32,000 nucleotides of DNA from Candidatus Calditenuis fumarioli (GCA_030059665.1 JANVYR010000002.1:99628-131627); one strand, 5' to 3'. Numbered from the stretch's first letter, positions 5,544 to 29,738 are shown. Notes: generated from the sequence alone by a model not told the origin. Translations and numbers: made by a program.

Positions 5544-5563
<20 letters not shown>
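4745..5563 (+). CDS. Archaemetzincin-like protein lacking the HExxH catalytic motif (function unknown)
   Basis: 272 aa with TTG start 14 nt after thi4. The C-terminal segment AVFYFFLGEAFCDDADCRLF-x17-LCNKH matches the archaemetzincin pattern HExxHxxG-x3-C-x4-C-x-M-x17-CxxC at the Gly and three Cys positions. The HExxH positions read AVFYF instead. The N-terminus (KLVLYADP...IEVEV...TYDPER) also resembles AmzA. The pattern comparison is from memory. Confidence 0.45.
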
Positions 5564-9338
<3,775 letters not shown>

Positions 9339-16167: not shown

Positions 16168-16849
16168 AGGTCTCCAGCGCGGCCTCGCAGACCGACGTCA
16201 GGAAGCTCTGCGGGTCCCTGGCCTTGACGTACGCCGACGATATCAGCACCCCCACCGTTCCCAGCTCGATCGCCCTGGCCACGTCATCTGGTCCCGAGAT
16301 CCCCGCGCCGCAGACCACCGGGACGTTCAGCCCCAATGACCTGATCCGCGCGATCGAATCGGTGACGACCTCCGGTTTGGCTTTGGAGACGGAGATCCCC
16401 GTTCCGATCAGCTCGGGAGGCTCTATCGCGACGAAGTCTGGCTCCAACGCAGCGACCGCCCTCGCGACCCTCGGTGTGTCCGCGCAGACCACCGAGACTA
16501 GTCCCTCCTCCCTCAGGGCCTCGACGGCCCCCGCGATCTCCGATGCGCCCAACCTCCTCTCCGAGTGGTTGACGAGGCTACCAGCAGCCCCGGCCTCCTT
16601 CAGCGCCAGCGCCGTCACGTGCCCCGTCCAGCTGCCCTCCCTCTGGGGATCCACGTGCTGGGCGAGCACTGGTATCTCGTGCCTGCTGGAGATCCTGTAG
16701 ACGTCCGTCGGCTGAACTGCGACCGCAACGGTCACCCCCGTCTCCCTCGAGACGGTCTCGGCGACGTAAGCGAGCCTCTCCGCTCCCGGCCCTATCGCCT
16801 CACGGTACGCCTTGAAGTTCAGGATCACCACGGGCAACGTCCAGTTCAT
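16154..16849 (-). CDS. tpiA: Triosephosphate isomerase (archaeal type)
   Basis: VVILNFKAY, LVNHSERR, IAIEPPELIGTG and VVCGAGIS are archaeal TIM motifs. ATG 16849 (MNWTLPVVILNFK) is preferred over the upstream GTG 16876 of the ORF track. Confidence 0.92.
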   Translation of the reverse strand: MNWTLPVVILNFKAYREAIGPGAERLAYVAETVSRETGVTVAVAVQPTDVYRISSRHEIPVLAQHVDPQREGSWTGHVTALALKEAGAAGSLVNHSERRLGASEIAGAVEALREEGLVSVVCADTPRVARAVAALEPDFVAIEPPELIGTGISVSKAKPEVVTDSIARIRSLGLNVPVVCGAGISGPDDVARAIELGTVGVLISSAYVKARDPQSFLTSVCEAALETFRRR

Positions 16850-17002
16850 TTCGCCCCCACTCCCGAGCGGCTTCACTTAAGCCAGAGCGCTCGCATTCCG
16901 TCGCGGCCTTTCGGCGAACGTGAGTGTCTTAACCTGGGCTCGGCGCAGCGGCAACCGGATCGGCTGAATCCCCATATCCGACGGTCTCCGAAGGCGGCTG
17001 GC

Positions 17003-18328
17003 TTGGGCGTCAGCTTCGACGCGATCGTCGAGCGGATCCGGCAGAGACACGGAGAGGACGCGGTCAGGAGGGTGCTGGAGGGCGTTGAGGAGGCCATCAA
17101 AAGGGACCCGAGGCTGACCCGGTTCGGCGCGCTGCTGCTGGTGGCCAACGAGCTCGGATACCTCCGCTCTGAGGTCGGTCTCCGTTCCTCTCTCCGCATC
17201 GGCGAGCTCGTCGGTGGTCTCCGGTCGGTCTCGGTCGTGGGGAGGGTGCTGGGCGTGAAGGGGCCTCTCGAGCGCGGAACCCGCAGGATGGCTGTCCTCA
17301 GGATCTCCGACGGAACCGGCAGCATCGACGTGGTGGCTTGGGGCTCCGCGGCCGATCTGGTCTCAAGCTCCGGACTGAGGGCTGGGCAGGCGGTCCGCGT
17401 CGTCGGCGCGAGGACGAGGGAGGCCCACGACGGAGGTCTGGAGCTACACCTCGACGAGGGCTCCCGGATCGAGGCCGCTGAGCACCACGAGGTCCCGGAG
17501 CTGGAGGAGCTGGTCGTGAGGAGGTTTCCCGCAGGCGCTGGCAAGGCGCTGGACCTGATGGCCACCGTGGTCGGCCTCTCCGGCGAGCGGACCTATGCGG
17601 CCTCCGGAAAGGAGCTCGGGGTTAGGGACGCCCTTCTCTCCGTCGGCGGCGAGCTGGTGTACCTCTCGGTCTGGTCGAGCCACGTCGAGGGCACCGACGC
17701 TCTGGAGGAGTGGACGGACTTCCTCCTCACCTCCCTGAGGCACCGGGACGGAGAGCTCAGCACCACGCCCAGGACCTGCGTCACCAGGCTGTCACCCTCG
17801 GGACCTGAGGAGGCCCTGGGGCCGCTGAGGGTGGTCACCCACAGGCCGGACTTCGGGCACCTGCTCACCAACGGCAAGTCCTACCTCCTCGCGAGGGGCA
17901 GCGTTCCGGGACCTGGGGCCGTCATCTCGGTGAGGTCGTGCAGGTTCGTCAGGGAGGGGAGGCACTGGTGGCTGGAGATCGGCGATTACCGGGAGGTTCA
18001 CGGCGCAGAGGTTCCGGAGCCCGAGGCCGTTCCTCTGTCCGACCTCAGGAAGGGGATGAGGGGGATCGCCGTCTCGGGTAAGATCCTGAACAAGTCGCAG
18101 CTCTCCGAGGTCAGGACCTCCTCCGGCAAGGTGGCGACGCTGGCCTTCTGGCTCTCCTCCGGCGAACGCTCGGTCTACTGCAGGGCCTGGCGCGAGGCGG
18201 CCGAGCTGATCAGCTCCGTCCCGGAGGGCGCGTGGGTCAGGCTCAGGTACGTCAGGGTCGAGACCGACAGGTACGGTGAGATGCAGGTGACGGTCGATCC
18301 CGAGTCGGACGTCGTCACGGAGAGCTGA
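17003..18328 (+). CDS. Replication protein A-like ssDNA-binding protein with about three OB folds and no zinc finger
   Basis: The track ORF 16565-18328 overlaps tpiA at its 5' end. A plausible start is TTG 17003, about 27 nt downstream of CCATATCC. The N-terminal helical domain (FDAIVERIRQ...GALLLVANELGY) is followed by OB-like segments (VSVVGRVLGV...RISDGTGSIDVVAWG; LMATVVGLSG...; IAVSGKILNK...VATLAFWLSSGERSVYCRAW). Confidence 0.65.
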   Translation: MGVSFDAIVERIRQRHGEDAVRRVLEGVEEAIKRDPRLTRFGALLLVANELGYLRSEVGLRSSLRIGELVGGLRSVSVVGRVLGVKGPLERGTRRMAVLRISDGTGSIDVVAWGSAADLVSSSGLRAGQAVRVVGARTREAHDGGLELHLDEGSRIEAAEHHEVPELEELVVRRFPAGAGKALDLMATVVGLSGERTYAASGKELGVRDALLSVGGELVYLSVWSSHVEGTDALEEWTDFLLTSLRHRDGELSTTPRTCVTRLSPSGPEEALGPLRVVTHRPDFGHLLTNGKSYLLARGSVPGPGAVISVRSCRFVREGRHWWLEIGDYREVHGAEVPEPEAVPLSDLRKGMRGIAVSGKILNKSQLSEVRTSSGKVATLAFWLSSGERSVYCRAWREAAELISSVPEGAWVRLRYVRVETDRYGEMQVTVDPESDVVTES

Positions 18329-20364: not shown

Positions 20365-20371
20365 TTATTAT
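20365..20371 (+). promoter_or_regulatory. TATA-like box for the SMC-like operon
   Basis: TTATTAT is centred about 29 nt upstream of ATG 20397, consistent with a leaderless first gene. Confidence 0.4.
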
Positions 20372-20396: not shown

Positions 20397-22124
20397 ATGG
20401 AGAGGCTCCGCGCGACCGAGGCCGCTGCCCTCCAGAGGAGACCCGCGTACATCACGGAGGTGGTGCTCGAGAACTTCATGTCGCACGAGTACTCCCGCAT
20501 CCGCCTCACGCCCGGCATCAACCTGATAACCGGCCCCAACGGCGCCGGCAAGTCGTCGATACTGCTGGGGATCGCGGTGGCGCTGGGTCAGAGCTACACC
20601 GAGCGCGGCGAGCGGCTCGCGGACCTGATCAGGAGGGGGAAGGACTCGGCCAGGGTCACGGTCACGTTCGACAACAGACCCGTCGACGGCGAGCGCCCCA
20701 TCAAGCAGATCCCTTCAGACACCGTCTCGATCACCCGCTACATCAGGAGGCAGGGCGAGTACTGGTACTACGTCAACAACCGCTTCCGGACGAAGGCTGA
20801 GGTCGAGCAGCTGCTGAGGTCGATCGGCATCAACCCGAACAACCTGCTGATCGTCATGCACCAGAACATGATCGAGGAGTTCGCCTCCCGCGACGACGCG
20901 GAGAAGCTGAGGATGTTCGAGGAGGCCGTCGGGATATCCGCGCTGAGGGAGAGGATCTACCAAGCGCAGGAGAAGCTCTCGGCCCTGATGGGTGAGGCCA
21001 GCGCGGTCAGGAAGGCCCTGGAGGAGGCGAGGGCCGCGGTCGAGTTCTGGAGGAAGGAGATGGAGAAGCTGAACGAGCGCCGTGAGCTGGAGCGCAGGAG
21101 GTCGCAGCTCGAGCTGGAGTACCTGTACAGCCTCGTGAGGCAGACGGAGCTCGCGATAGAGAGGAAGCGGGGCTCCCTCACATCCGTCAGGTCGGAGCTC
21201 GAGGCCCTCAGGGCCAGGGCGTCGGAGCTGAGGTCCGAGGTCGCGAGGATGAGGGAGGAGCTGCTCAGGAGCGTCGATCGAGGCAGCCGCTCACCGGAGA
21301 TCGCCTCGGTCCTTGACGCCCTGATACAGCGGGCCGTAGAGAAAGGGGTGGCGGAGTACAGGGTGGCGGTCCTGGAGCGGGAGGAGAGGGAGCTGGAGCG
21401 CGACATCAGGGCGCTCGAGCGGGAGCTGGAGGAGAGGTTGAGGAGCGCTTCCTCCAAAGGGCCGCGCGTCGAGACCTCCAGGGAGCCCAGCGAGGTCCTC
21501 GAGGAGCTCAAGTTCGTCACGCTCCAGCTCTCATCGACGGGCCCGGTCGTGGCCGAGGCGGAGGAGATGTTCTTCGCTGCGGACTCGAAGTACCGTCAGA
21601 TGGAGATCAGGGCGCAGGAGCTTGAGGCCAACGTCAGGAAGGCGATGGAGGAGCTCGAGTACCGGAAGAGGCTTTGGAGGGAGAAGATGAGGGAGCTGAT
21701 CGAGGAGCTCAGCCCCATCTACGACTCCATCCTCTCCGCCGCAGGAGGCACCGGCTCCATCCGGGTCGCCAACCTCGACGACCCCCTCAACGCTAGGCTC
21801 GAGCTCTTCGCGGGCTTCAGGGGGAACCCTCCCACGCTGCTGGACGCCCAGACCCACAGCGGAGGCGAGAGGGTTTTGGCGACCATGGCCTTCCTCCTCG
21901 CGGCCCAGTCCCGGATCAGGTCGCCCTTCAGGGCGGTCGACGAGTTCGACGTCCACCTCGATCCCCTGAACAGGGAGATGGTGATGCGGATGCTGGTCGA
22001 GACGGCCAAGCGCAACGAGGGCGTTCAGTACCTGATCATAACTCCCGGAAGGGTCCCGGAGCTGGAGGGGATGAACGTGATCGTGGTCCAGAGCGTCTCC
22101 GGTCGCTCCTTCGTCACCCAGTGA
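20397..22124 (+). CDS. Short-armed SMC-like ABC ATPase (575 aa)
   Basis: N-terminal head half: ITEVVLENFMSH...LITGPNGAGKSSIL (Walker A, nt 20532-20558) and Q-loop-like LIVMHQN. About 270 aa of E/R/L-rich heptad sequence follows, with a mid-point break (VDRGSRSPE). C-terminal head half: signature HSGGER, Walker B FRAVDEFD, D-loop VHLD and QYLIITPG. The track ORF starts at 20265, but ATG 20397 fits the promoter spacing. Confidence 0.85.
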   Translation: MERLRATEAAALQRRPAYITEVVLENFMSHEYSRIRLTPGINLITGPNGAGKSSILLGIAVALGQSYTERGERLADLIRRGKDSARVTVTFDNRPVDGERPIKQIPSDTVSITRYIRRQGEYWYYVNNRFRTKAEVEQLLRSIGINPNNLLIVMHQNMIEEFASRDDAEKLRMFEEAVGISALRERIYQAQEKLSALMGEASAVRKALEEARAAVEFWRKEMEKLNERRELERRRSQLELEYLYSLVRQTELAIERKRGSLTSVRSELEALRARASELRSEVARMREELLRSVDRGSRSPEIASVLDALIQRAVEKGVAEYRVAVLEREERELERDIRALERELEERLRSASSKGPRVETSREPSEVLEELKFVTLQLSSTGPVVAEAEEMFFAADSKYRQMEIRAQELEANVRKAMEELEYRKRLWREKMRELIEELSPIYDSILSAAGGTGSIRVANLDDPLNARLELFAGFRGNPPTLLDAQTHSGGERVLATMAFLLAAQSRIRSPFRAVDEFDVHLDPLNREMVMRMLVETAKRNEGVQYLIITPGRVPELEGMNVIVVQSVSGRSFVTQ

Positions 22125-22196
22125 TCCTCCCGGATCACCCAAGGAGGCCGCACGGCAAAGGTTCTTGAGCGATTCCAGAGGCCTCATGGAGGGCGG

Positions 22197-22922
22197 ATGA
22201 AGGGGATCGAGGTCAGGCGGGAGGAGCTGATGAGGATGATCTCCTCGCTGGAGGCGGTGCTGAGGATGAAGGTTGAGCCCTTCACGGTCGAGGTCCGGCC
22301 TCTGCTGGAGAGGCTCAGGCGGATCGTCGAGGAGAACAGGGACGCGGAGACGCTCGTGCTGGACGCGGAGGCCCTCTACAGGGTATCGGTGGTTCTGGCG
22401 CTTCAGCAGAAGGCCATAGTCCAGTCGGCCTCCTCCCTCTTCGTCGACGCCCAGATCGTCGCATCCAAGGTCATCGGTTCTCCCCCCGTCGCGCTCGCAG
22501 GGGTCTTCCTCCTCGCCTGGCGCCCGCTCGTCAGGATCGAGCAGGTCTCTAACCCCTTGCTGCTCAGGGGGTACGAGCACTTCCTCTCGCTCCCGACGAG
22601 GGGTGTGGTGCAGCCCGAGCCGACAAGCGGTGGGGCCGTCGGTGCAGAGTGGGCCGTCCACGAGCAGCGGTTCGAGGAGGAGCTCAAGCGGCTGCTGGAG
22701 GAGCTCAGATCGAGGGGCGACTGGGTGGATTACTGGAGCTTCCTCTCCGAGGTCGGCGGTTCCAGCAGGGCCAAGGTCGCGTACCTCCTGAGCTTCCTGA
22801 TCACCCGCGGCGACGTCGAGGTCAGGTACAACCCCCTCACCGAGGAGCTCAGGATCAGGGCTGCCGAGAGGCGGGAGGATTCCGGCGACCAGAGGACCTC
22901 CCTCGTGGTCACGGTGAGGTGA
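22197..22922 (+). CDS. Kleisin-like protein (ScpA-like organisation)
   Basis: 241 aa. SD GGAGG lies at 22188-22192, 4 nt before the ATG. The N-terminal helical region (PFTVEVRPLLERLRRIV...LDAEALYRVSVVLALQQKAI) resembles the ScpA N-terminus. The C-terminal winged-helix-like segment (SSRAKVAYLLSFLITRGDVEVRYNPLTEELRI) resembles the ScpA C-terminal WHD. The assignment rests on pattern similarity and gene context only. Confidence 0.55.
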   Translation: MKGIEVRREELMRMISSLEAVLRMKVEPFTVEVRPLLERLRRIVEENRDAETLVLDAEALYRVSVVLALQQKAIVQSASSLFVDAQIVASKVIGSPPVALAGVFLLAWRPLVRIEQVSNPLLLRGYEHFLSLPTRGVVQPEPTSGGAVGAEWAVHEQRFEEELKRLLEELRSRGDWVDYWSFLSEVGGSSRAKVAYLLSFLITRGDVEVRYNPLTEELRIRAAERREDSGDQRTSLVVTVR

Positions 22923-23015
22923 TGAGCCCTGTCCGTCGAGCCGTTCGATGAGGGATCGGCGGAGCAGCCGGAGGAGGTCGTCTCAGATCGAGAGCTGACC
23001 AAGCTGGAGCGGAAG

Positions 23016-23585
23016 GTGGCCATCGCCGCTGCACTGATCCTGACCTCTGGCCACAGGCAGCCCGGGGTCAGGGGCTGGGAGCTCAGGAGGAGGCTCGGCA
23101 AGAACTACCCCAAGGTGCTCGAAGCGCTCGACTCCAGGCTTAAGCGGATAGGGTTGAGGCTCAAGGTGGTCCACGAGGACGATTCTCAGGATCCAGATAG
23201 GGCCAGGTACTACGTGGTGGTAGCCGAGCCGCTCGCGCTATCGGACCTGACGACGCTGGGCTACAGCATCGACGAGGTCGCTGTCTTGGCCGCAACGCTC
23301 GCCTACCTGTATGCCTCCAACGACAGGAGGCCCTACAAGGAGGTCGTGGAGCTGCTGGAGACCAAGTACCCCAAGTGGCGGGTAGAGAGCATACTGGAAC
23401 GTTTGATCAGGAGGGGCTATCTCGTCAGGACCGAGGACGACCAGCTGGTAGTCGGCTGGAGGTCGAGGGTCGAGGTCGACAAGCAGGAGCTGCTGAGGGC
23501 AATCGCCTCCCTCGGCAAGTTCCCGTCCGGCGAGCAGCCCCCTCAACCCGAGGCCGACAGCGCACCGAGCGAGGACCAGACGTAG
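23016..23585 (+). CDS. Tandem winged-helix protein, kite-like (ScpB / Nse3-MAGE-like organisation)
   Basis: 189 aa from GTG 23016. WH-A is ILTSGHRQPGVRGWELRRRLGKNYPKVLEALDSRLKRIGLRLKVV...ARYYVVVAE. WH-B is VAVLAATLAYLYASNDRRPYKEVVELLETKYPKWRVESILERLIRRGYLVRTEDDQLVVGW. The C-terminal tail is acidic and disordered. The frame is open back to 22926, so the real start may be upstream. Confidence 0.5.
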   Translation: MAIAAALILTSGHRQPGVRGWELRRRLGKNYPKVLEALDSRLKRIGLRLKVVHEDDSQDPDRARYYVVVAEPLALSDLTTLGYSIDEVAVLAATLAYLYASNDRRPYKEVVELLETKYPKWRVESILERLIRRGYLVRTEDDQLVVGWRSRVEVDKQELLRAIASLGKFPSGEQPPQPEADSAPSEDQT

Positions 23586-24199
23586 ACCATGTAGAGGCCT
23601 GCCGCGAGCAACACGAACCTCCCAAGGTACCACGTGTATCTGGTCGCGCCGGAGAACTTCCTGATCGCCCTGCCACCGATCAGCGAGAGGGCCAGCACCA
23701 GCGCTCCCACCGGCAGCAACATGCCTGCTGAGTACGCCGCCAGCAGCGGAACCGAGCCCTCCGGTCCCAGCAGAGCTGAGTACAGGACCAGAACCAAAAA
23801 GGTGGGAAGGGCGCAACCGGCAGCTCCGAACGCGTAGAGCGCACCGGCCGCGACCATCCTGAAAGAGCTTCGACTGCCGATCAGCAGCGGACCAGCGAGC
23901 CCGAGGCCCGACCTGCCAGCGAGGGCCAGCGCCACAGTACCGGCCCCTGCCACTAGCGTCATGTGGGGCATGACCGGTGCGAGCGCGAACTTAGCGGTGG
24001 ATGCTGCCAGCGTAAGGATCGCCAGCGTGCCGATCGATCCCATCGCCATCATGAGGAACCTCCTCAGCGCCTCCCTCGCGGTCGGGGTTCCGGAACCTCC
24101 GTAGAGCACGAGCGCCGGGAGCAGCGAGTAACCGCAGGGCGTGAGGACGGTCGAGAGGCCCGCGAGGAAGGCCGTGACGACCATCACAGGGTCAGGCAT
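23543..24199 (-). CDS. ccdA: CcdA/DsbD-family transmembrane thiol-disulfide electron transporter
   Basis: Polytopic membrane protein with the CcdA-type motif LTPCGYSLLPAL in TM1. ATG 24199 lies 1 nt after the upstream gene's stop. The track ORF extends to 24247 in overlap. Confidence 0.8.
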   Translation of the reverse strand: MPDPVMVVTAFLAGLSTVLTPCGYSLLPALVLYGGSGTPTAREALRRFLMMAMGSIGTLAILTLAASTAKFALAPVMPHMTLVAGAGTVALALAGRSGLGLAGPLLIGSRSSFRMVAAGALYAFGAAGCALPTFLVLVLYSALLGPEGSVPLLAAYSAGMLLPVGALVLALSLIGGRAIRKFSGATRYTWYLGRFVLLAAGLYMVYVWSSLGALSASG

Positions 24200-24200
24200 C

Positions 24201-25205
24201 TCATCCACCGCCAGAGCTGCGTGCGACCGCCTCGAGCGCAGCGGCAAGCTCCGACGGCGAGAAGACGCCCCACCTCCTCTCGTAGACGACCCGCCCGTCT
24301 GGATCGAACCCGAGCAGCGTCTCCTGCGAAACCACCTTCAGGTCGTTCAGGAACTGGATGTTGGCCGTCACGTAGATCCAGTCGTCTGGCAGGTTCATCC
24401 TTCGCTTGAAGTCGAGCACGTCATCGTCCGAGTCGCTCGGGTCGAAGCTCTTCGCAACCACCGTCACTTTTCCCCTGTACGGCTCGTAGGCCTTCGCAGC
24501 GTTCCGGACGTTCGTCGAGCACGTGGGGCACCAAGTCGCGAAGAAGATCACCAGCACCGGCCTTCCCCTCGATAGGAGCTCCCGGAGCGTCACGGTCCCG
24601 CCTCCTACCAGCCTGAGGGGCCTGTCGAGGTAGACCGGTTCGTGCATGCCCTCGTGGGTCTGAACGTACCGCTGCGTCTCACCACCGCGCAGAAGCGAGG
24701 CGTACTTCTCCACCAGAGCCTCCCAGGAGAGGAGCTGACCTCCCGAGCTGATCGCGTGCTCCGAGGCCGCCGAGATCTCCCTGAAGGCCACGATGCCCGA
24801 CCCCATCGGCGTCCTCACAGACGAACCCATGACGAACCACGCGCCCTCCGCAGAGACGGGCCGTCCAGTAGTCAGGTCGTGCACGACCACCTTCTCGACC
24901 TCGGAGAACCTGAGGCCGATCAGTTTGCCGGAACCCCTGATCCTTCCGGTCCCGACGAGGTAGAAGACCAAGAGGCAATAGATGTCGTCGAACCTCAGCG
25001 TTCTGCCGTCGGCCAGCATCGCCCCCGCGAACCTCCTGTCACGTATCGGCATCTCGCAGTAGTCGCAACGATCCTCTCCCTCTCGAATGAGCTCCTCCTG
25101 GTTCCACTCGGTTGTTCTCCTGAAGAAAAGGAAGGAGGCGATCAGGACCGCGGCCGATCCTATTGTTGCGAGGAACTCCCTGCGCCCGAGCCTCACCGGA
25201 GGCAT
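24201..25205 (-). CDS. NosL-like copper chaperone domain fused to a TlpA/ResA-like thioredoxin domain, with twin-arginine-like N-terminal anchor
   Basis: 334 aa. The N-terminus RLGRREFLATIGSAAVLI is a Tat-like RRxFL followed by a hydrophobic stretch. The NosL-type motif is CDYCEMPIRDRRFAGAML...FDDIYC...FVMGSSVRTPMGSGIVAF. The C-terminal thioredoxin fold has VLVIFFATWCPTC. Confidence 0.7.
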   Translation of the reverse strand: MPPVRLGRREFLATIGSAAVLIASFLFFRRTTEWNQEELIREGEDRCDYCEMPIRDRRFAGAMLADGRTLRFDDIYCLLVFYLVGTGRIRGSGKLIGLRFSEVEKVVVHDLTTGRPVSAEGAWFVMGSSVRTPMGSGIVAFREISAASEHAISSGGQLLSWEALVEKYASLLRGGETQRYVQTHEGMHEPVYLDRPLRLVGGGTVTLRELLSRGRPVLVIFFATWCPTCSTNVRNAAKAYEPYRGKVTVVAKSFDPSDSDDDVLDFKRRMNLPDDWIYVTANIQFLNDLKVVSQETLLGFDPDGRVVYERRWGVFSPSELAAALEAVARSSGGG

Positions 25206-25209
25206 CGCG

Positions 25210-25689
25210 TCACTGCTCGACTATCACCGTTCCGGTCATCCACGGGTGGAGGTTGCAGTAATAGTCGAACCTGCCAGGCTTTGTGAAGGTGAACGAAACC
25301 GACTGACCGGGGTTAACGGATGGGAAGTTGAACGACCCGTCCCTGGCCACAACCGCATGCGTGACGTCGTCCTCGTTCACCCATACCACCGTGTTGTTAA
25401 CGCCGATCTTGACCTTGACGACCTGCGGCTCGAAGGTCAGGTTCGGGTTCGTCCCGGAGCCTTTGGGGTTGATCACGGTGACCCTGCCGGATGCCTGCGG
25501 CGTGGTGCGCTGCGTCGTCTGCTGCACGGCAGTCGTGGTCTTAGTTTGGATTTGCGTGGTTTGAGGAGTGGTAACCCTCGTGGTTTGCTCCGCAGGAGCC
25601 CGTGGCGGCTGGGCTGACAGGTACAGGTAGATCGCTGCGCCCGCGATCACGAGGACCGCGAGCACCGCCATTGCCGAGACGTTCCTCAT
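25210..25689 (-). CDS. Membrane-anchored type-1 (blue) copper protein, plastocyanin/amicyanin-like cupredoxin
   Basis: 159 aa with an N-terminal TM helix and a Thr/Gln-rich linker (TTRVTTPQTTQIQTKTTTAVQQTTQRTTPQ). The cupredoxin domain has T1 ligands H (DVTHAV) and C-x2-H-x2-M (YYCNLHPWM). A strong SD GAGGTGA (minus strand, 25697-25703) is present. Confidence 0.85.
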   Translation of the reverse strand: MRNVSAMAVLAVLVIAGAAIYLYLSAQPPRAPAEQTTRVTTPQTTQIQTKTTTAVQQTTQRTTPQASGRVTVINPKGSGTNPNLTFEPQVVKVKIGVNNTVVWVNEDDVTHAVVARDGSFNFPSVNPGQSVSFTFTKPGRFDYYCNLHPWMTGTVIVEQ

Positions 25690-25706
25690 GGGTCCGTCAC
25701 CTCAAC

Positions 25707-26768
25707 TCACTCCTCGACTATCAGAAGGCCTATCATGCCGGCGTCGGCGTGGCTGACCACATGGCAGTGGAACAGGTAGACTCCGGGCTTCGTGTAGGTG
25801 ACCTCAACGGTGTCCGCAGCTCCGGGCACGAGGGGGACGACCTGCGCCGGCCACGACCTTCCTCCCAGCACCCACTTGGACTTCAGGTCCCCGACGTGGA
25901 GGTGCCAGCTGTGGTAGATGTCGCCGATGTTGACGATGTGGAACCTGATCTTCTCGCCGACCTTCGCCTTGAAGACCGGGAAGGACTTGTTGAAGAGCTG
26001 CGCCACGCCCTCGAGTCCCTTCAGGTTGGGGAAGATCTTGCTCTTTCCGGTGTAGACCAGCTCTAGCTCAGGCTCCCCTCCCGGCAGGCCCTTCCCGTTC
26101 ATGATGTAGAAGGGCCTCGGACCCTCGCCCGTTATAGCACCGGGAACCGAAGGAAGCTCTGACATGAAGACCACGAACTCCCTCGCCGGCGGCTCGTCGA
26201 AGTCGTAGACGATGATGGCTCCGTAGAGGCCCATCAGCATGTGGTCAACTATCCTCAGACCTCCTCCGGCCACCGGACCTCCCGAGTGGCAGTGGTAGTA
26301 CCAAATTCCGGGCTTAGTTGCAGGCCACTCGTAGACCCACTCTCCTCCCGGAGGTATCATCGATCCCTTTCCGACACCTGTCAGGATGTTGATCTGGCTG
26401 CCGTCGTGCTGGAGGTCGTAGTACGGCATATGCGGGTGGAGGCTGTGGGTGAGGTTCAGCTTGTTCACGGCCCTGACCCTGATGAGGTCGCCGACCCTCG
26501 CCACCAGCGTCGGTCCGGGAACGGTGCCGTTGTACGTCCACGCGTGCCACACCACACCCGGCGCGATCTCTATGTCAGCCCCTTTGATCTCGATGTAGTA
26601 CTCCCTCACCTGACCCGTTTGAGCCTGCACCGGAACGCCGACCTGCCTCGCGAGCTGCGTCATCACCGGCGAGACGTACGGGGCCACCAGAACGCCGATC
26701 ACGACGCCCGCAGCCACCAGCAGCAGGAAGAGCAACACCGTTCTTCCCTGATTTGTTCCCGACATCAA
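25707..26768 (-). CDS. Two-domain multicopper oxidase (both cupredoxin domains carry HxxHxH + HCH motifs)
   Basis: 353 aa with an N-terminal signal/anchor (RTVLLFLLLVAAGVVIG). Domain 1: WTYNGTVPGPTL, HSLHPH, YYHCHSGG...DHMLMG. Domain 2: HSWHLH, FHCHVVSHADAGM. The likely start is ATG 26765, because the TTG 26768 in the track is the adjacent codon. Confidence 0.85.
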   Translation of the reverse strand: MMSGTNQGRTVLLFLLLVAAGVVIGVLVAPYVSPVMTQLARQVGVPVQAQTGQVREYYIEIKGADIEIAPGVVWHAWTYNGTVPGPTLVARVGDLIRVRAVNKLNLTHSLHPHMPYYDLQHDGSQINILTGVGKGSMIPPGGEWVYEWPATKPGIWYYHCHSGGPVAGGGLRIVDHMLMGLYGAIIVYDFDEPPAREFVVFMSELPSVPGAITGEGPRPFYIMNGKGLPGGEPELELVYTGKSKIFPNLKGLEGVAQLFNKSFPVFKAKVGEKIRFHIVNIGDIYHSWHLHVGDLKSKWVLGGRSWPAQVVPLVPGAADTVEVTYTKPGVYLFHCHVVSHADAGMIGLLIVEE

Positions 26769-26888: not shown

Positions 26889-29738
26889 TCACCTGAAGGC
26901 CTGAAGCAGGCGCTCCTTCTCCGCCTCCATCAGCAGCTCGAAGAACCTCGGCGTCAGCCTGGGCTCGGCGCTGAGGATCCGCTCGGCGTCCTTCACGGTC
27001 AGGTTCCTCCCGACCAGCGCTACGATCGCAGCCTTCCCGTACCTCTCGATCAGCTCCGCCGTTTTCTCGGCCTCCCTCAGGACCCTCCTCTCCTCGGAGG
27101 AGAGGGATTTGCCGCGCTTGGCGAGGACGGACGAGAGCAGGTCCTCATCGGCCCTGAACAGGCCGAGCTTCCTGGAGCCGCACGCGGGGCACCTGGGCTG
27201 GGGATCGAGGGACCCGACGTCAGAACGTATGGCATCGGCCAGGCACTCGACGCAGATCAGGGTCACGCGCTCCGACATCAGCCTCCCCTTGACCATGTTC
27301 AGCACGACCCTGTGCACCCGCTCGGGTGCGAAGGTCTCGAACTCGTACAGGTACCTGTTGATGGTGAGGGCCGCTAGCGGGCTCGGAGCCGGCAGCCTCA
27401 CGACCTTCACCGAGACCTCACCCCTGATGATCCGCTCCAGCTCCCTCCTCGTGCCGGGCCAGTCGTAGTCGGTGACCGAGGTGAATCTGAGGGCCTCCAC
27501 GTAAGGTGCCGATCCCCTGAGGGCCTCGACCAGCTGCCTCGCGCTGACGTCGAGGAGGCTCGTCTCCTTCCCCACAACGCCCATCTTCCTTGCCACGTGG
27601 ATCAGCCTGCGCCTGAAGACGCCGGAGCCCTCGATGGCCCTCCTCATCAGATCCTCCGAAAGCAGCCTCGGGATCGCCTCCACGACCGCCTCCGGCTCGA
27701 GCAGCTTCGACCTCAGCACTATCCTGTACGGATCCGACTGGACGGAGACCGGTGATCCCAGCTCCTCCGCGAGGTGCGTCACGAGAAGCCTCGCGATCGT
27801 CCTGTTGATCCTGAGGCCACCGCAGTGGTGGACGACCACGAACTCGCCCGCACCCTCCACCAGAACCTCCCTGTCGGTCGGGACCGGTATCCCCAGGTTG
27901 AGGTGCGCCTCGACCTCGGCAAGGGCCCTCCTCATGTCCTGCTCGGGGACCGAGTACTCGGCCGCCAGAACCGAGACCGCCGCATCGACGTCAACGCCAG
28001 ACCTCCTCATCTCGGCGTACCTCCGCCTGATCGACCCGACCTCCTGCGCCACCTCAAACGGCACCGGGATCTCGTCACCGACCCAGGATGGGACCGCGCC
28101 CTCGCCCTCCCTGAGGGGTGCAACGTAGATCCGGTCGCCCGACAGGCTCAGGATGACCCAGGGCCTGCCTCCCAGGATGAAGCGCGTGCCGACCTCGCCG
28201 TACTCCGCGACGAAGCTCTCGTCCAGTATCCCCACCGGCTCGTTCGTCCCCTCCTCGACCACCAGGTACTGCCTCTCCTCCGGGATCATCGAGAGGTTGT
28301 CGAAGTAGTAGCTGTAGAGGACCTTCGGGTTCGGAGGTCTCGTGACCCGGTCTCCCTGGACCCTGAGGAGGCCGATGCTCGACGCGAAGGCCAGCACCAG
28401 ATCCAGGTCCTCCTCCGGGAAGTCCCTGAAGTTGTAGGACGACCTCAGGAACCTCAGCAGCTCGTCCTTCCTGACCTCGCCGTATTCTATCAGCAGCCCC
28501 GCTATCTGGTGAAGGGCCACGTCGAGCGGGTTCCTGACCACCTCGGTCGGCTCCAGCTCCATCGCCTTAGCCCTCCTCGCGATCGCCATCGCCTCCAGGG
28601 CGTCGTCCGAGTCCATCACGATCACCACCCCCTTCGACTCCTGTCCTATCCTGTGGCCGCTCCGGCCGACGCGCTGGACGAGCCTCGTCACCTCCCTCGG
28701 CGAGTTGTACTGGATCACCAGGTCCACCCTTCCCACGTCTATCCCCATCTCCAAGCTAGAGGTGCAGATCAGTCCCTTCAGGTCGCCGTACTTCAGGTCC
28801 CTCTCGGCCTCGAGCCGCCTGTCCCTCGAGAGCGAGCCGTGGTGTATCGTGACCGGGAAGGCCTCGTCGAGCGCCTTGAACCTGTTCGCGAGGATCTCGG
28901 CCAGAGGTCTCGTGTTGGTGAAGATCAGCGTGGACTGGTGGACCTCGACCAGCGCCCGGATCGCGTTGAGACGAGCCGCCACGTCCGGCGCCACCCCCAG
29001 GTACTCCGCCAGCTCCCTGTCCTCCGGCCCCGGAACCGGGAAGAGTATGGTGACCGAGAAGCCCTTCGGAAGCGGCACCCTGACGACCCTGCAGCTCCTC
29101 CCCGGGCCCACCAGGAACCTCGCGACCTCCTCCGCGCTCCCCACCGTCGCCGAGAGGCCTATGATCTGGAAGTCCCTGCCGGTGATCCGCCTGAGCCTCT
29201 CCAGCGCCAGCGAGAGCTGCGCCCCCCTCTTGTCGGTCGCCAGCTCGTGGACCTCGTCGACGATCACGTACCTGACGTTGGCCAGGTGGGACCTCAGCAC
29301 CCTCCCCGTCAGGAGCGACTGGAGCGTCTCGGGCGTCGTGATCAGCAGCATCGGAGGCCTGAGCGTGTGGGCCCTCCTCTCCGAGGGCGCGGTGTCGCCG
29401 TGCCTTACGGCCACTGTCAGGTCGAGCCTCTGCGACCACCAGGCCATCCGCTCGAGGAGGTCCCTGTTCAGCGCCCTGAGCGGAGTGATGTACAGCGCCG
29501 CTACCGGTCTGAGGTCCCTGTTCACCAGGAGCTCGCTGAAGATCGGGAGCAGAGCGGCCTCCGTCTTGCCCGAGCCGGTCGGGGCCATCAGGAGCAGGTT
29601 CTCGCCGTTGAGGACGTGGGGTATCGTAGCCCTCTGGGTCTCCGCGAGCCCCCCGAACCTCTCGAGGACGGCCTCCCTCACCGGCTTCGCCAGCAGCTCC
29701 AGCGGGTCGGTCAGCATGATCCGCCAGAAGGTCTCCAC
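26889..29738 (-). CDS. lhr: Lhr-type large superfamily-2 helicase (DEAD/DEAH box plus DEAD-associated domain) with C-terminal zinc ribbon
   Basis: 949 aa with MAPTGSGKT (motif I), VIVDEVHEL (motif II), SAT and QRVGRSGH (motif VI). A Lhr-core WH/DEAD_assoc-like region (YYFDNLSMIPEERQYLV...GILDESFVAEY...FILGGRPW) follows, and the C-terminus has CVEC...CPACG. GTG 29738 is the track start. ATG 29717 lies about 30 nt downstream of GATAAAG (minus strand) and is an equally likely start. Confidence 0.9.
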   Translation of the reverse strand: METFWRIMLTDPLELLAKPVREAVLERFGGLAETQRATIPHVLNGENLLLMAPTGSGKTEAALLPIFSELLVNRDLRPVAALYITPLRALNRDLLERMAWWSQRLDLTVAVRHGDTAPSERRAHTLRPPMLLITTPETLQSLLTGRVLRSHLANVRYVIVDEVHELATDKRGAQLSLALERLRRITGRDFQIIGLSATVGSAEEVARFLVGPGRSCRVVRVPLPKGFSVTILFPVPGPEDRELAEYLGVAPDVAARLNAIRALVEVHQSTLIFTNTRPLAEILANRFKALDEAFPVTIHHGSLSRDRRLEAERDLKYGDLKGLICTSSLEMGIDVGRVDLVIQYNSPREVTRLVQRVGRSGHRIGQESKGVVIVMDSDDALEAMAIARRAKAMELEPTEVVRNPLDVALHQIAGLLIEYGEVRKDELLRFLRSSYNFRDFPEEDLDLVLAFASSIGLLRVQGDRVTRPPNPKVLYSYYFDNLSMIPEERQYLVVEEGTNEPVGILDESFVAEYGEVGTRFILGGRPWVILSLSGDRIYVAPLREGEGAVPSWVGDEIPVPFEVAQEVGSIRRRYAEMRRSGVDVDAAVSVLAAEYSVPEQDMRRALAEVEAHLNLGIPVPTDREVLVEGAGEFVVVHHCGGLRINRTIARLLVTHLAEELGSPVSVQSDPYRIVLRSKLLEPEAVVEAIPRLLSEDLMRRAIEGSGVFRRRLIHVARKMGVVGKETSLLDVSARQLVEALRGSAPYVEALRFTSVTDYDWPGTRRELERIIRGEVSVKVVRLPAPSPLAALTINRYLYEFETFAPERVHRVVLNMVKGRLMSERVTLICVECLADAIRSDVGSLDPQPRCPACGSRKLGLFRADEDLLSSVLAKRGKSLSSEERRVLREAEKTAELIERYGKAAIVALVGRNLTVKDAERILSAEPRLTPRFFELLMEAEKERLLQAFR

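What the first reader, a model, noticed from the sequence alone, without database searches (positions are those of the whole stretch)
20397..23585. Three-gene module: short-armed, apparently hinge-less SMC-like ATPase + kleisin-like + tandem winged-helix (kite-like) protein
Seen in ORF1 (575 aa): an SMC/Rad50-type split ABC head (Walker A GPNGAGKSS, Q-loop-like VMHQN, signature HSGGER, Walker B FRAVDEFD). The two head halves are separated by only ~270 aa of heptad-rich E/R/L sequence. That sequence breaks at its midpoint (..VDRGSRSPE..). There is no CxxC zinc hook and no room for a ~150-aa hinge domain. Seen in ORF2 (241 aa, own SD): an ScpA-like layout with a helical N-terminus and a C-terminal winged-helix-like ...AYLLSFLITRGDVEVRYNPLTEELRI. 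Seen in ORF3: two winged-helix repeats, which is the ScpB/MukE/Nse1-Nse3 'kite' layout. Established: SMC + kleisin + kite is the architecture of Smc-ScpAB, MukBEF, Wadjet JetABC and Smc5/6, whose SMC subunits are ~1100-1500 aa with very long arms. Inference: this is a miniaturised SMC-kleisin-kite complex with arms roughly one third of canonical length. I cannot confidently assign it to any characterised archaeal system. The archaeal SMC-related proteins I recall, such as Sph1/2 or ClsN, are not known to me as operon-linked to both a kleisin and a kite. The module is divergently transcribed from the tfe-trm56-kaiC-like operon, which suggests a chromosomal housekeeping role rather than a mobile one.
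Basis: partly seen in the sequence, partly recalled or inferred. Interest (0 to 1): 0.8.

Follow-up and report, generated by a model that had tools for sequence, protein, structure and literature searches.

The report
Hinge-less mini Smc5/6-like archaeal operon
This is a real three-gene operon encoding an archaeal relative of the eukaryotic Smc5/6 DNA-maintenance complex (ATPase, kleisin, kite) whose ATPase naturally lacks the hinge and about two thirds of the arms; the gene family has already been catalogued, but this truncated build and a conserved neighbouring Lhr helicase have not been described in the papers I could read.

Summary
ORF1 (20397-22124) has an intact SMC-type ATPase head. A confident AlphaFold2 model shows a 114-residue helix, a 4-residue turn and return helices, with no hinge and no zinc hook. 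ORF2 is an Nse4-type kleisin and ORF3 an Nse1/Nse3 (MAGE)-type kite.

The trio is syntenic in about 75 of 80 related genome loci from Caldarchaeales, Methanomethylicia and Hadarchaeota. ORF1's best solved-structure matches are yeast Smc5 and human SMC6. In a head-domain tree the short family groups with eukaryotic Smc5+Smc6 and away from canonical Smc.

The family is not new. van Hooff et al. (bioRxiv 2024/25) list the orthologous trio of Calditenuaceae HR02 as an "SMC5/6-related" operon. The texts I could read say nothing about the half-length, hinge-less SMC.

Two further points emerged. The arm tip varies greatly in length and sequence, and close relatives carry a hinge or a CxxC hook instead. 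An aLhr1-type helicase lies convergently downstream of the kite in 45 of 60 loci.

My best reading is a chromosomal, ATP-gated DNA-clamping complex held together by kleisin and engaged heads, probably acting in genome maintenance. Verdict: new variant of a known kind, moderately interesting.

The parts
20365..20371 (+). TATA-like TTATTAT, 26-32 nt upstream of the ORF1 ATG (possible promoter of a leaderless or near-leaderless transcript)
   Evidence: Direct reading of the 40 nt upstream of 20397. Inference only; not tested.
20397..22124 (+). ORF1: short-armed, hinge-less Smc5/6-related SMC ATPase (575 aa)
   Evidence: Pfam SMC_N 3e-36. Best PDB sequence hits are yeast Smc5 at 5.7e-37 and human SMC6 at 1.7e-28. 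AF2 mean pLDDT 87.6. Best Foldseek match is 5xei, a Pyrococcus Smc head + coiled coil + joint construct.
20445..20936 (+). N-terminal head half (aa 17-180), with Walker A GPNGAGKS (aa 46-53, nt 20532-20555) and Q-loop MHQN (aa 154-157)
   Evidence: These residues are invariant in alignment A3.
20937..21278 (+). Ascending arm helix (aa 181-294, about 17 nm)
   Evidence: AF2 secondary structure.
21279..21290 (+). Arm apex: a 4-residue turn (aa 295-298) where a hinge or zinc hook would sit
   Evidence: AF2. All length variation in the family maps here, and conservation is lowest here.
21291..21740 (+). Descending arm (aa 299-448): helices 299-354, 364-380 and 388-448, with joint-like breaks at 355-363 and 381-387
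   Evidence: AF2. Foldseek match to the head-coiled coil-joint construct 5xei.
21741..22124 (+). C-terminal head half (aa 449-575): signature SGGER (nt 21858-21872), Walker B/D-loop FRAVDEFDVHLD (from nt 21927) and the Smc6-like QYLIITPG motif
22188..22192 (+). GGAGG ribosome-binding site of ORF2
   Evidence: Direct reading.
22197..22922 (+). ORF2: Nse4-type kleisin (241 aa). N-terminal helices aa 2-80, low-confidence linker aa 81-147, C-terminal winged helix aa 148-222
23016..23585 (+). ORF3: Nse1/Nse3 (MAGE)-type kite (189 aa). Two roughly 80-aa winged-helix-like halves (aa 1-84 and 85-165) plus an acidic, Pro-rich tail. No RING finger
   Evidence: Start-codon issue.
26889..29738 (-). aLhr1-type Lhr helicase (949 aa, C-terminal CxxC...CxxC), a conserved convergent neighbour of the trio. 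Here it is displaced 3.3 kb by a copper-gene insert
   Evidence: Pfam DEAD, Helicase_C, WH_Lhr and DEAD_assoc. Neighbourhood statistics.

Best explanation
**What it is.** The locus encodes an archaeal Smc5/6-related SMC-kleisin-kite complex in a naturally truncated form. ORF1 is an active-looking SMC ATPase head on a roughly 17-nm antiparallel coiled-coil hairpin that ends in a plain turn. ORF2 is an Nse4-like kleisin. ORF3 is an Nse1/Nse3 (MAGE)-like tandem winged-helix kite.

**Proposed mechanism (inferred).** One kleisin binds the neck of one ORF1 through its N-terminal helices and the cap of a second ORF1 through its C-terminal winged helix. Its linker carries kite subunits. With no hinge or hook, the two SMC subunits are held together only by the kleisin and by ATP-driven head engagement. 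The complex would then act mainly as an ATP-gated clamp that grips DNA on the engaged heads under the kleisin/kite module. This corresponds to the DNA-clamped state of eukaryotic Smc5/6. It would not act as a large ring or long-range loop extruder.

**Proposed role (inferred).** It is a vertically inherited chromosomal function. It probably serves genome maintenance at replication forks or DNA junctions and is functionally linked to the neighbouring aLhr1 helicase.

**Shown:** subunit homologies, intact motifs, architecture, operon conservation, Lhr synteny, chromosomal context. **Inferred:** stoichiometry, clamping, and the repair or replication-fork role.
For: **Identity of the three subunits**
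- ORF1 has its best PDB sequence hits to Smc5/Smc6, ahead of prokaryotic Smc and far ahead of Rad50.
- The NJ head tree separates canonical Smc at 100% bootstrap. It joins the short family with eukaryotic Smc5+Smc6 at 90%. Clade identities were checked against PDB.
- ORF1 shares the motifs DEFDV.(L/M)D..NR and Q(Y/F)..ITP with Smc6.
- ORF2: Pfam Nse4_C in 19 of 30 members, PDB hits to Nse4/EID3, best Foldseek match Nse4 chain 7qcd_F.
- ORF3: MAGE and Nse1 Pfam hits, NCBI names of 'MAGE domain-containing protein' on relatives, top PDB hit Nse3.
- van Hooff et al. list the HR02 orthologues (my locus L010) as SMC5/6-related SMC, Nse4-related kleisin and Nse1,3-related kite.

**Architecture**
- The AF2 hairpin has no hinge and the protein has no cysteine.
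- The Walker A to signature span is 429-563 aa in about 47 representative clusters, against 858-925 aa in long relatives.
- The apex varies in length and sequence and carries no conserved motif.

**Operon**
- Genes mostly overlap by 4 nt in relatives.

**Head-only dimerisation is plausible**
- Engineered hinge-less yeast Smc5 and Smc6 sub-complexes associate only when ATP is present (PMC8327961).

**Housekeeping context**
- The window carries aIF2-gamma, RNA polymerase A/B, TFE, Trm56 and an aaRS-like gene.
- No relatives were found in viral, phage or plasmid collections.

**Link to repair**
- Lhr lies downstream in 45 of 60 loci across three lineages, convergent in 44, with overlapping 3' ends in 23.
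- Lhr also lies near the hinge-bearing relative.
- Archaeal Lhr preferentially targets replication-fork structures (abstract of PMC7437997).
Against: - No complex, ATPase activity or DNA binding has been shown for any member.
- The stoichiometry and the kleisin-neck and kleisin-cap contacts were not modelled, because no multimer tool was available.
- The N-terminal kleisin domain is supported only by a medium-confidence AF2 model (pLDDT about 70-82) and a weak full-length Foldseek alignment (E 2.5e-3).
- The kite evidence is individually weak (best E about 2e-4 in Pfam and 0.01 in PDB).
- Tip-to-tip arm dimerisation cannot be excluded from sequence. RecN-like proteins also dimerise through poorly conserved coiled-coil tips (my own knowledge).
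- Lhr is convergent, so it is not co-transcribed, and it is absent from 15 of 60 loci.
- The NJ support for monophyly of the short family is only 61-64%.
Confidence: 0.6

Rival explanations
1. A true mini-ring SMC. The two short arms dimerise tip to tip or zip into a rod. Together with the kleisin this gives a small closed ring that topologically entraps DNA and translocates or extrudes loops like Smc-ScpAB, only with a shorter reach.
For: - The full SMC-kleisin-kite subunit set is conserved.
- The arm retains the neck and joint-like breaks seen in canonical Smc.
- Related proteins carry a hinge (P0175) or a central CxxC (Bathyarchaeia) at the same position, so tip dimerisation is the ancestral solution in this clade.
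Against: - The apex is the least conserved part of the protein (0.27-0.30).
- It varies from about 48 to 177 residues with no shared motif, and it has no Cys.
- Arm length is not held constant, unlike the tuned arms of canonical Smc (PMC5344682 abstract).
Confidence: 0.2
2. A defence system against extrachromosomal DNA. Analogues would be Wadjet JetABCD or the antiviral role of human Smc5/6, with the Lhr-type helicase as effector or partner (Lhr-like helicases occur in BREX as BrxHI).
For: - ORF1 matches the PADLOC models mad3 (1.3e-34) and LmuB (1.3e-19), and Lhr matches BrxHI (5.9e-103).
- Upstream neighbours of the trio are not conserved between lineages.
- Smc5/6 and Wadjet are known DNA-restriction factors (PMC10586767 abstract).
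Against: - The PADLOC hits are generic head or helicase similarities and score lower than the SMC models.
- ORF2 and ORF3 hit no defence family.
- No nuclease (JetD-like) is nearby.
- The window is a housekeeping region.
- The trio is single-copy and syntenic across whole orders.
- No viral, phage or plasmid copies were found.
Confidence: 0.1
3. A stand-alone SMC-like repair or chromatin ATPase of the ASRP (ClsN/Sph), Rad50 or RecN type that merely sits next to two unrelated winged-helix proteins.
For: ORF1's length (575 aa) resembles ASRP and RecN. There are weak NCBIfam matches to ASRP (76 bits) and Rad50 (84 bits).
Against: - All of these score far below their cut-offs and below the SMC models.
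- There is no zinc hook, which is present in the vast majority of ASRPs (PMC9389158).
- ASRPs have no conserved neighbours, whereas this trio is conserved and its partners are Nse4-like and MAGE-like.
- No Mre11 gene is nearby.
Confidence: 0.03
4. A truncated gene or assembly artefact of a full-length Smc.
For: None beyond the short length.
Against: More than 1500 homologues of the same length come from many assemblies and sources. There are 80 genome loci, intact motifs, and a confident fold.
Confidence: 0.01

Closest known systems
Archaeal 'SMC5/6-related' SMC / Nse4-related kleisin / Nse1,3-related kite operons (van Hooff et al., bioRxiv 10.1101/2024.01.07.573240; SMC5/6-related aSMC of Yoshinaga & Inagaki 2021, PMC8665677)
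   Same: Same gene family. The HR02 example trio BEHE01000017.1_4/_3/_2 is my locus L010, whose SMC is 56% identical to ORF1. Gene order is the same, and it occurs in TACK archaea.
   Different: Those papers treat the proteins as ordinary SMCs and give no architecture. Searches of the main text and held supplements found 'hinge' only in the general description of SMC complexes and nothing on shorter SMCs. Their table scores SMC5_SMC6_related = 0 for most Methanomethylicia and Bathyarchaeia rows that do have the kite. The Methanomethylicia loci fetched here do carry the short SMC. No experiments exist.
Eukaryotic Smc5/6 core (Smc5-Smc6 with Nse4 kleisin and Nse1/Nse3 kites)
   Same: It gives the best sequence and structure matches for all three subunits. 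It shares the Walker B/D-loop and 'ITP' motifs and has the kleisin + MAGE-type kite module.
   Different: The eukaryotic SMCs are about 1100 aa with a hinge and long arms and form a heterodimer. Nse1 has a RING finger, and Nse2 and Nse5/6 are present. Here there is one 575-aa SMC (presumably a homodimer), no hinge, no RING (no Cys), and no Nse2/5/6 genes in the operon.
Prokaryotic Smc-ScpAB (condensin-like)
   Same: Operon logic of SMC-kleisin-kite, with a head, neck and joint fold. The top Foldseek hit is the Pyrococcus Smc head-coiled coil-joint construct 5xei.
   Different: Canonical Smc is about 1170 aa with 49-nm arms and a hinge. ORF1 scores only 186 bits against a 729-bit cut-off on TIGR02169. 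The partners are Nse4/MAGE-like, not ScpA/ScpB-like. The HR02 relative carries a separate Smc-ScpA-ScpB operon.
ASRP family (coalescin ClsN, Sph1/2)
   Same: Archaeal, SMC-superfamily, about 600-aa proteins with short arms.
   Different: ASRPs have a zinc hook and no conserved neighbours, and they form a separate clade. ORF1 has no Cys and scores 76 of the required 300 bits.
Engineered hinge-less or 'mini' SMC constructs (Smc5/6 delta-hinge; Pyrococcus head-joint construct)
   Same: Essentially the same parts list as ORF1. [quoted passage not shown]
   Different: Those are laboratory truncations. ORF1 is a natural, widely conserved protein.
Wadjet JetABC / MukBEF
   Same: SMC + kleisin + kite architecture.
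   Different: JetC and MukB are long with hinges. JetD nuclease is absent here, and ORF2 and ORF3 have no PADLOC JetA/JetB hits.

Membership tests
SMC superfamily (ABC-type split head) | Walker A, Q-loop, signature motif, Walker B/D-loop split by a coiled coil | tested here: met
   All motifs are present and invariant in the family. Pfam SMC_N 3e-36. Foldseek matches SMC heads at E about 1e-20 to 1e-23.
SMC proper (Smc, Smc1-6) | Central hinge dimerisation domain | tested here: not met
   No SMC_hinge Pfam hit. AF2 shows a 4-residue turn at aa 295-298. Only 268 aa lie between the head halves.
SMC proper (Smc, Smc1-6) | Long arms of about 45-50 nm with conserved length | tested here: not met
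   The ascending helix is 114 aa, about 17 nm. The Walker A to signature span is 429-563 aa in the family against 858-1045 aa in long SMCs. Arm length is variable.
Smc5/6-related clade | Head closer to Smc5/Smc6 than to canonical Smc, Rad50 or ASRP | tested here: met
   PDB phmmer: Smc5 5.7e-37, SMC6 1.7e-28, Pyrococcus Smc 5e-26, Rad50 about 5e-8. NJ tree: 100% split from canonical Smc and 90% grouping with Smc5+Smc6. Shared motifs. The tree is NJ only; no ML tree or distant outgroups.
Kleisin (Nse4 type) | C-terminal winged-helix domain (Nse4_C) | tested here: met
   Pfam Nse4_C in 19 of 30 family members, best 3.5e-7. Profile against PDB: EID3 1.6e-4, yeast Nse4 2e-4. AF2 winged helix at aa 148-222; ScpA cWHD 4i99_C matches at TM 0.72. 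ORF2 itself has no Pfam hit above threshold.
Kleisin (Nse4 type) | N-terminal helical domain that binds the SMC neck | tested here: inconclusive
   AF2 gives three helices (aa 2-22, 33-46, 50-80) at pLDDT about 70-82. There is a full-length Foldseek alignment to Nse4 chain 7qcd_F at E 2.5e-3. No sequence-level hit. Binding was not testable.
Kleisin | Bridges the neck of one SMC and the cap of another | not testable with these tools
   No multimer prediction or experiment was available.
Kite (Nse1/Nse3/MAGE type) | Tandem winged-helix (MAGE homology) fold | tested here: met
   - Pfam hits on relatives: MAGE in 14 of 29 (best 2.8e-4) and SMC_Nse1 in 12 of 29 (best 2.2e-4).
- ORF3 itself scores MAGE 0.0067.
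- The profile's top PDB hit is Xenopus Nse3 7dg2_C at E 0.01, covering aa 4-131.
- The N- and C-terminal halves align with score 40, against 25.9 +/- 4.9 for shuffles (18 of 1000 reach it).
- Each line is weak alone. No 3D model was made.
Nse1 specifically | C-terminal RING finger | tested here: not met
   ORF3 has no cysteine. This agrees with van Hooff et al., who report that archaeal kites lack the RING.
Smc5/6 holo-complex | Nse2 SUMO ligase and Nse5/6 subunits | not tested
   No such genes lie in the operon or its conserved neighbourhood. The rest of the genome was not available.
ASRP (ClsN/Sph) | Zinc-hook CxxC at the arm apex; NCBIfam NF045487 at 300 bits or more | tested here: not met
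   No Cys. Score 75.8 bits.
Rad50 | Zinc hook and an Mre11 partner | tested here: not met
   No Cys. Rad50 models score 84 bits or less against cut-offs of 700 or more. No Mre11 among the neighbours.
Wadjet / Lamassu defence SMCs | JetA/JetB/JetD or LmuA partners; defence-island context | tested here: not met
   ORF2 and ORF3 have no PADLOC hits, and ORF1 has only generic head hits. The context is housekeeping.

The most novel reading that the evidence does not exclude
Most of the nearest prokaryotic relatives of eukaryotic Smc5/6 recovered here are natural 'mini-SMCs' that work without any hinge, hook or long arms. In this clade the arm tip is an exchangeable module: a hinge in P0175-like proteins, nothing in the short family, and an ASRP-like CxxC hook in Bathyarchaeia. 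If so, the conserved core activity of the Smc5/6 lineage would be ATP-gated DNA clamping by heads + kleisin + kite rather than ring entrapment or loop extrusion. That core would be anciently coupled to an Lhr-type fork-processing helicase, foreshadowing the Smc5/6-helicase partnerships of eukaryotes.
Probability: 0.3. Interest if true: 0.75.

Novelty: new variant of a known kind. Interest (0 to 1): 0.6.

Why it matters
- **It challenges a standard assumption.** Hinge dimerisation and tuned, roughly 50-nm arms are treated as essential to how SMC complexes load onto and move along DNA. Here a complete SMC-kleisin-kite set is widely conserved and chromosomally encoded, yet its SMC is naturally reduced to head, neck and joint. 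That makes it a natural test of which SMC activities need the arms and hinge.
- **It bears on the origin of Smc5/6.** The family sits on the branch leading to eukaryotic Smc5/6, so it informs what the ancestral Smc5/6-type machine did.
- **It is a practical study object.** The thermophilic complex is small (575 + 241 + 189 aa) and would suit structural and single-molecule work.
- **It points to a function.** The conserved Lhr neighbour gives a concrete, testable lead.
- **It suggests a gap in published surveys.** The short SMC partner may have been under-counted.

Tried and rejected
- **ASRP/ClsN, Rad50, RecN and RecF membership.** Rejected on NCBIfam scores, the absence of a zinc hook, and the conserved kleisin/kite partners.
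- **Marine 'hinge-less SMC' of PMC12153180.** This is a different, bacterial (actinobacterial) group with no kleisin discussion.
- **Defence-system reading.** PADLOC gives only generic head and helicase hits. There are no viral, phage or plasmid relatives.
- **Structure prediction of ORF2 with the richer alignment A1.** The 20-sequence A4 was used instead and gave only pLDDT 64.
- **Profile-profile self-comparison of the two kite halves (hhalign).** It aligned only 16 columns at E 0.086. A plain local alignment with a shuffle control was more informative.
- **Pfam SMC_hinge on long relatives.** Only P0215 gave a weak hit (E 0.007). The hinge in P0175 and P0187 is inferred from their globular, non-heptad middle.
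- **Literature searches for 'archaeal Smc5/6-like' phrases.** Nothing further was found.
- **ORF3 start.** An earlier start was sought because relatives carry a conserved 'ELTKMERK' upstream. The window has no ATG, GTG or TTG there.
- **Upstream neighbours (TFE, Trm56, KaiC).** They are conserved only in the closest relative, so they are not part of the system.

Full report
**1. The observation**

The window carries three co-directional ORFs.
- ORF1 is at 20397-22124 (575 aa from the ATG also used by the closest relatives).
- ORF2 is at 22197-22922 (241 aa, GGAGG 5 nt upstream).
- ORF3 is at 23016-23585 (189 aa, GTG start).

The ORF3 frame is open from the ORF2 stop. Relatives carry a conserved 'ELTKMERK' just upstream of the start, but the window has no start codon there.

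None of the three proteins contains a cysteine. Upstream and divergent lie TFE-alpha, Trm56 and a KaiC-like ATPase. Further out are RNA polymerase A (unsplit) and B, aIF2-gamma, Thi4 and an aaRS-like gene, so this is a chromosomal housekeeping region. The closest relatives are Candidatus Calditenuis / Calditenuaceae (Aigarchaeota, Caldarchaeales) at 88% identity.

**2. ORF1 is an SMC head on a short hairpin arm**

Sequence evidence:
- Pfam gives SMC_N (3e-36) and no hinge.
- NCBIfam's best model is archaeal SMC (TIGR02169) at 186 bits, far below its 729-bit cut-off.
- ASRP scores 76 bits, Rad50 84 bits or less, and RecN 30 bits.

Structure evidence:
- An AlphaFold2 model built on 46 sequences is confident (mean pLDDT 87.6).
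- It shows the N-terminal head half, one helix at aa 181-294, a four-residue turn at 295-298, helices at 299-354, 364-380 and 388-448, and the C-terminal head half.
- The ascending helix of 114 residues corresponds to about 17 nm. Canonical Smc arms are about 49 nm (abstract of PMC5526789).
- The best Foldseek match in the PDB is 5xei, an engineered Pyrococcus 'Smc head with a coiled coil and joint'. It is followed by cohesin, condensin and Smc5/6 heads.

ORF1 is therefore a natural equivalent of a head-neck-joint construct, with neither hinge nor zinc hook.

**3. ORF2 is an Nse4-type kleisin and ORF3 an Nse1/Nse3 (MAGE)-type kite**

ORF2 alone has no Pfam or NCBIfam hit. The family-level evidence is stronger:
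- Nineteen of 30 members hit Pfam Nse4_C, best 3.5e-7.
- One database relative carries a precomputed PF08743 hit.
- The AF2 model (pLDDT 64) has three N-terminal helices at pLDDT 70-82, a low-confidence middle and a C-terminal winged helix at pLDDT 74-90.
- Foldseek ranks yeast Nse4 (7qcd_F, full-length alignment, E 2.5e-3) first. The ScpA C-terminal winged helix follows (4i99_C, TM 0.72), and Brn1, Rad21 and Scc1 also appear.

ORF3 evidence:
- ORF3 hits Pfam MAGE weakly (0.0067).
- Among its relatives, 14 of 29 hit MAGE and 12 of 29 hit SMC_Nse1.
- NCBI names several relatives 'MAGE domain-containing protein'.
- The top, and only plausible, PDB hit of the family profile is Xenopus Nse3 at E 0.01.
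- Its two halves align with each other better than 98% of shuffles.

Each line for the kite is weak alone, but they agree.

**4. The trio is a conserved operon**

A scan of one genome per species returned 80 loci with an ORF1 relative. They come from Caldarchaeales, Methanomethylicia, Hadarchaeota and one Thermoprotei genome.
- An ORF2 homologue follows in 77 of 81 loci and an ORF3 homologue in 74 of 81. Neighbouring genes usually overlap by 4 nt.
- Most exceptions are contig ends.
- The real exceptions are L003-L005 (kite elsewhere), L037 (a 2.5-kb insert) and L056 (dispersed).

**5. Where it belongs**

ORF1's best PDB sequence hits are:
- yeast Smc5, 5.7e-37
- human SMC6, 1.7e-28
- Pyrococcus Smc, 5e-26
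- Rad50, only about 5e-8

A search of 1.84 billion cluster representatives gave 130 clusters at E 1e-30 or better. The best roughly 55 are 548-685 aa, a few are long (928-1047 aa), and then come eukaryotic-type proteins of about 1100 aa.

A neighbour-joining tree of the head domains (99 sequences, 318 columns, 100 bootstraps) gave these results:
- It separates canonical Smc at 100%.
- It groups the short family with two clades that I verified to be Smc5 and Smc6, at 90%.
- It places the hinge-bearing archaeal proteins P0187 and P0175 just outside the short family, at 61-64% support.

ORF1 shares the D-loop 'DEFDV.(L/M)D..NR' and the 'Q(Y/F)..ITP' motif with Smc6. Canonical Smc has 'DE(V/I)DAHLD' and 'QFIVI(S/T)L'.

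This matches the literature. Yoshinaga & Inagaki defined 'SMC5/6-related aSMC' in TACK archaea. van Hooff et al. described paired archaeal operons, one condensin/cohesin-related and one SMC5/6-related with an Nse4-like kleisin and an Nse1/3-like kite. Their supplementary table names BEHE01000017.1_4/_3/_2 of Calditenuaceae HR02 as such an operon. That is my locus L010. The same genome also has an Smc-ScpA-ScpB-type operon on another contig.

The gene family is therefore already catalogued.

**6. What is not in those papers**

In the held main text of van Hooff et al., 'hinge' occurs only in the general description of SMC complexes and 'short' only for linear motifs. The held supplements contain neither 'hinge' nor 'shorter'. 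In Yoshinaga & Inagaki 2021, 'shorter' does not occur and 'hinge' again appears only in the general description of SMC proteins.

Their table scores SMC5_SMC6_related = 0 for most Methanomethylicia and many Bathyarchaeia genomes that do have the Nse1/3-like kite. In contrast, 16 of the 17 Methanomethylicia loci I fetched have the short SMC two genes upstream of the kite; the seventeenth is cut at the contig end. I infer that short SMCs were under-detected.

Findings on the architecture:
- The Walker A to signature span is 429-563 aa in about 47 representative clusters, against 858-925 aa in long relatives and Smc5/6.
- All length variation maps to the arm apex. After residue 295 the other members insert on average about 51 residues.
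- Conservation is lowest at the apex (0.27-0.30, against 0.7-0.9 in the head).
- The apex segments range from 48 to 177 residues, are coiled-coil-like, and share no motif.

Close relatives solve the tip differently.
- P0175 (982 aa) has a globular hinge-like middle. It is followed by clear ORF2 and ORF3 homologues (3e-36 and 4e-33 to my profiles) and has an Lhr gene nearby.
- The Bathyarchaeia proteins P0154, P0157 and P0171 (1016-1047 aa) nest inside the short family in the tree. They have long arms with a central CxxC.
- In P0154, the one of the three tested, the middle matches the ASRP model at 85 bits.
- P0157 has no kleisin or kite beside it.

**7. A conserved neighbour**

Clustering all ORFs of the 80 loci shows only four families shared across the three lineages: the SMC, the kleisin, the kite and an Lhr-type helicase.
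- Among the 60 loci with at least 3.5 kb of sequence beyond the kite, 45 have Lhr downstream. By lineage this is 30 of 43 Caldarchaeales, 13 of 13 Methanomethylicia and 2 of 4 Hadarchaeota.
- Lhr is convergent in 44 of these, and the 3' ends overlap in 23.
- In the window, Lhr (26889-29738, minus strand) lies 3.3 kb away. A copper-related insert shared only with the nearest relative L002 sits between them.
- Pfam finds DEAD, Helicase_C, WH_Lhr and DEAD_assoc domains.
- The C-terminal CxxC...CxxC motif marks it as aLhr1 in the scheme of Hajj et al., who found no conserved aLhr1 neighbours in their genome set.
- Archaeal Lhr is reported to prefer replication-fork structures (abstract of PMC7437997).

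**8. How it most likely works**

Shown:
- three subunits homologous to the Smc5/6, Nse4 and Nse1/3 core
- intact ATPase motifs
- operon organisation
- no hinge or hook, and a non-conserved tip
- chromosomal context, with no mobile-element relatives

Inferred: a kleisin-bridged pair of ORF1 heads closes on ATP and clamps DNA together with the kites, and this is probably coupled to Lhr in fork or junction processing.

[quoted passage not shown] That eukaryotic Smc5/6 regulates fork-remodelling helicases (Mph1/FANCM, Sgs1/BLM) is from my own knowledge and is only an analogy.

Rivals are a tip-dimerised mini-ring, a defence role, and a stand-alone ASRP/Rad50-like ATPase. They are weighed in their own sections of this report. 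The mini-ring cannot be excluded without multimer modelling or biochemistry.

**9. Verdict**

- The module belongs to an already catalogued but uncharacterised family, the archaeal SMC5/6-related operons.
- The hinge-less, short and variable arm, the interchangeable tip, and the Lhr synteny are not described in the literature I could search.
- I rate it a new variant of a known kind, with interest 0.6.

Noticed in passing
window 26889-29738 (-); loci L002-L079: An aLhr1-type Lhr helicase is the only other gene family conserved beside the SMC5/6-like trio across Caldarchaeales, Methanomethylicia and Hadarchaeota. It is present in 45 of 60 loci, convergent in 44, with overlapping 3' ends in 23. 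A published survey of archaeal Lhr found no conserved aLhr1 neighbours.
   Followed up: partly
window 23543-26768 (-): A 3.3-kb block lies between the kite and Lhr. It encodes a membrane protein with no Pfam hit, a NosL-thioredoxin fusion, a cupredoxin and a multicopper oxidase. It is shared only with the nearest relative L002, so it looks like a lineage-specific insertion of copper-handling genes.
   Followed up: partly
P0154, P0157, P0171 (Bathyarchaeia); locus L082: These relatives of about 1016-1047 aa nest within the short family in the head tree. They have long arms with a central CxxC. In P0154, the one tested, the middle matches the NCBIfam ASRP model at 85 bits. P0157 has no kleisin or kite next to it. 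They may be a head/arm chimera between Smc5/6-like and ASRP proteins.
   Followed up: partly
locus L081 4014-8261 and 10599-11962: A 982-aa hinge-bearing relative (P0175) is followed by clear homologues of the kleisin and kite, with an Lhr gene about 2.3 kb downstream on the same strand. The operon and the Lhr link therefore predate loss of the hinge.
   Followed up: yes
loci L059, L074, L077, L079, L060-L078, L012, L013, L056 (upstream of the SMC gene): A family of about 230 aa with no Pfam hit lies upstream of the SMC gene. It is usually divergent and 0-2.5 kb away. It occurs in 4 of 4 Hadarchaeota, 13 Methanomethylicia and 3 Caldarchaeales loci, but not in the window.
   Followed up: no
window 22923-23015: The ORF3 reading frame is open from the ORF2 stop and encodes the conserved 'RELTKLERK' seen in relatives. 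It contains no ATG, GTG or TTG; relatives have an ATG four codons before the window's GTG. The true start may be the GTG at 23016 or a non-canonical codon (CTG).
   Followed up: partly
loci L003-L005, L037, L056: There are exceptions to the trio's synteny. The kite is not adjacent in L003-L005. Unrelated genes (2.5 kb) are inserted between the SMC and kleisin in L037. In L056 the SMC stands alone and the kite sits next to Lhr.
   Followed up: partly
van Hooff et al. Supplementary Table 3 versus loci L058-L078: The published table scores no SMC5/6-related SMC in most Methanomethylicia and many Bathyarchaeia genomes that do have the Nse1/3-like kite. The Methanomethylicia loci fetched here do carry the short SMC, so it was probably under-detected.
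   Followed up: partly
window 5544-9338 (-) and 9340-12720 (-): An unsplit RNA polymerase subunit A (1264 aa, Rpb1 domains 1-5 in one ORF) lies directly downstream of subunit B.
   Followed up: no
window 16565-18328 (+): A large protein with a single OB-fold (tRNA_anti-codon type) domain is encoded convergently next to the KaiC-like ATPase. Its function was not examined.
   Followed up: no
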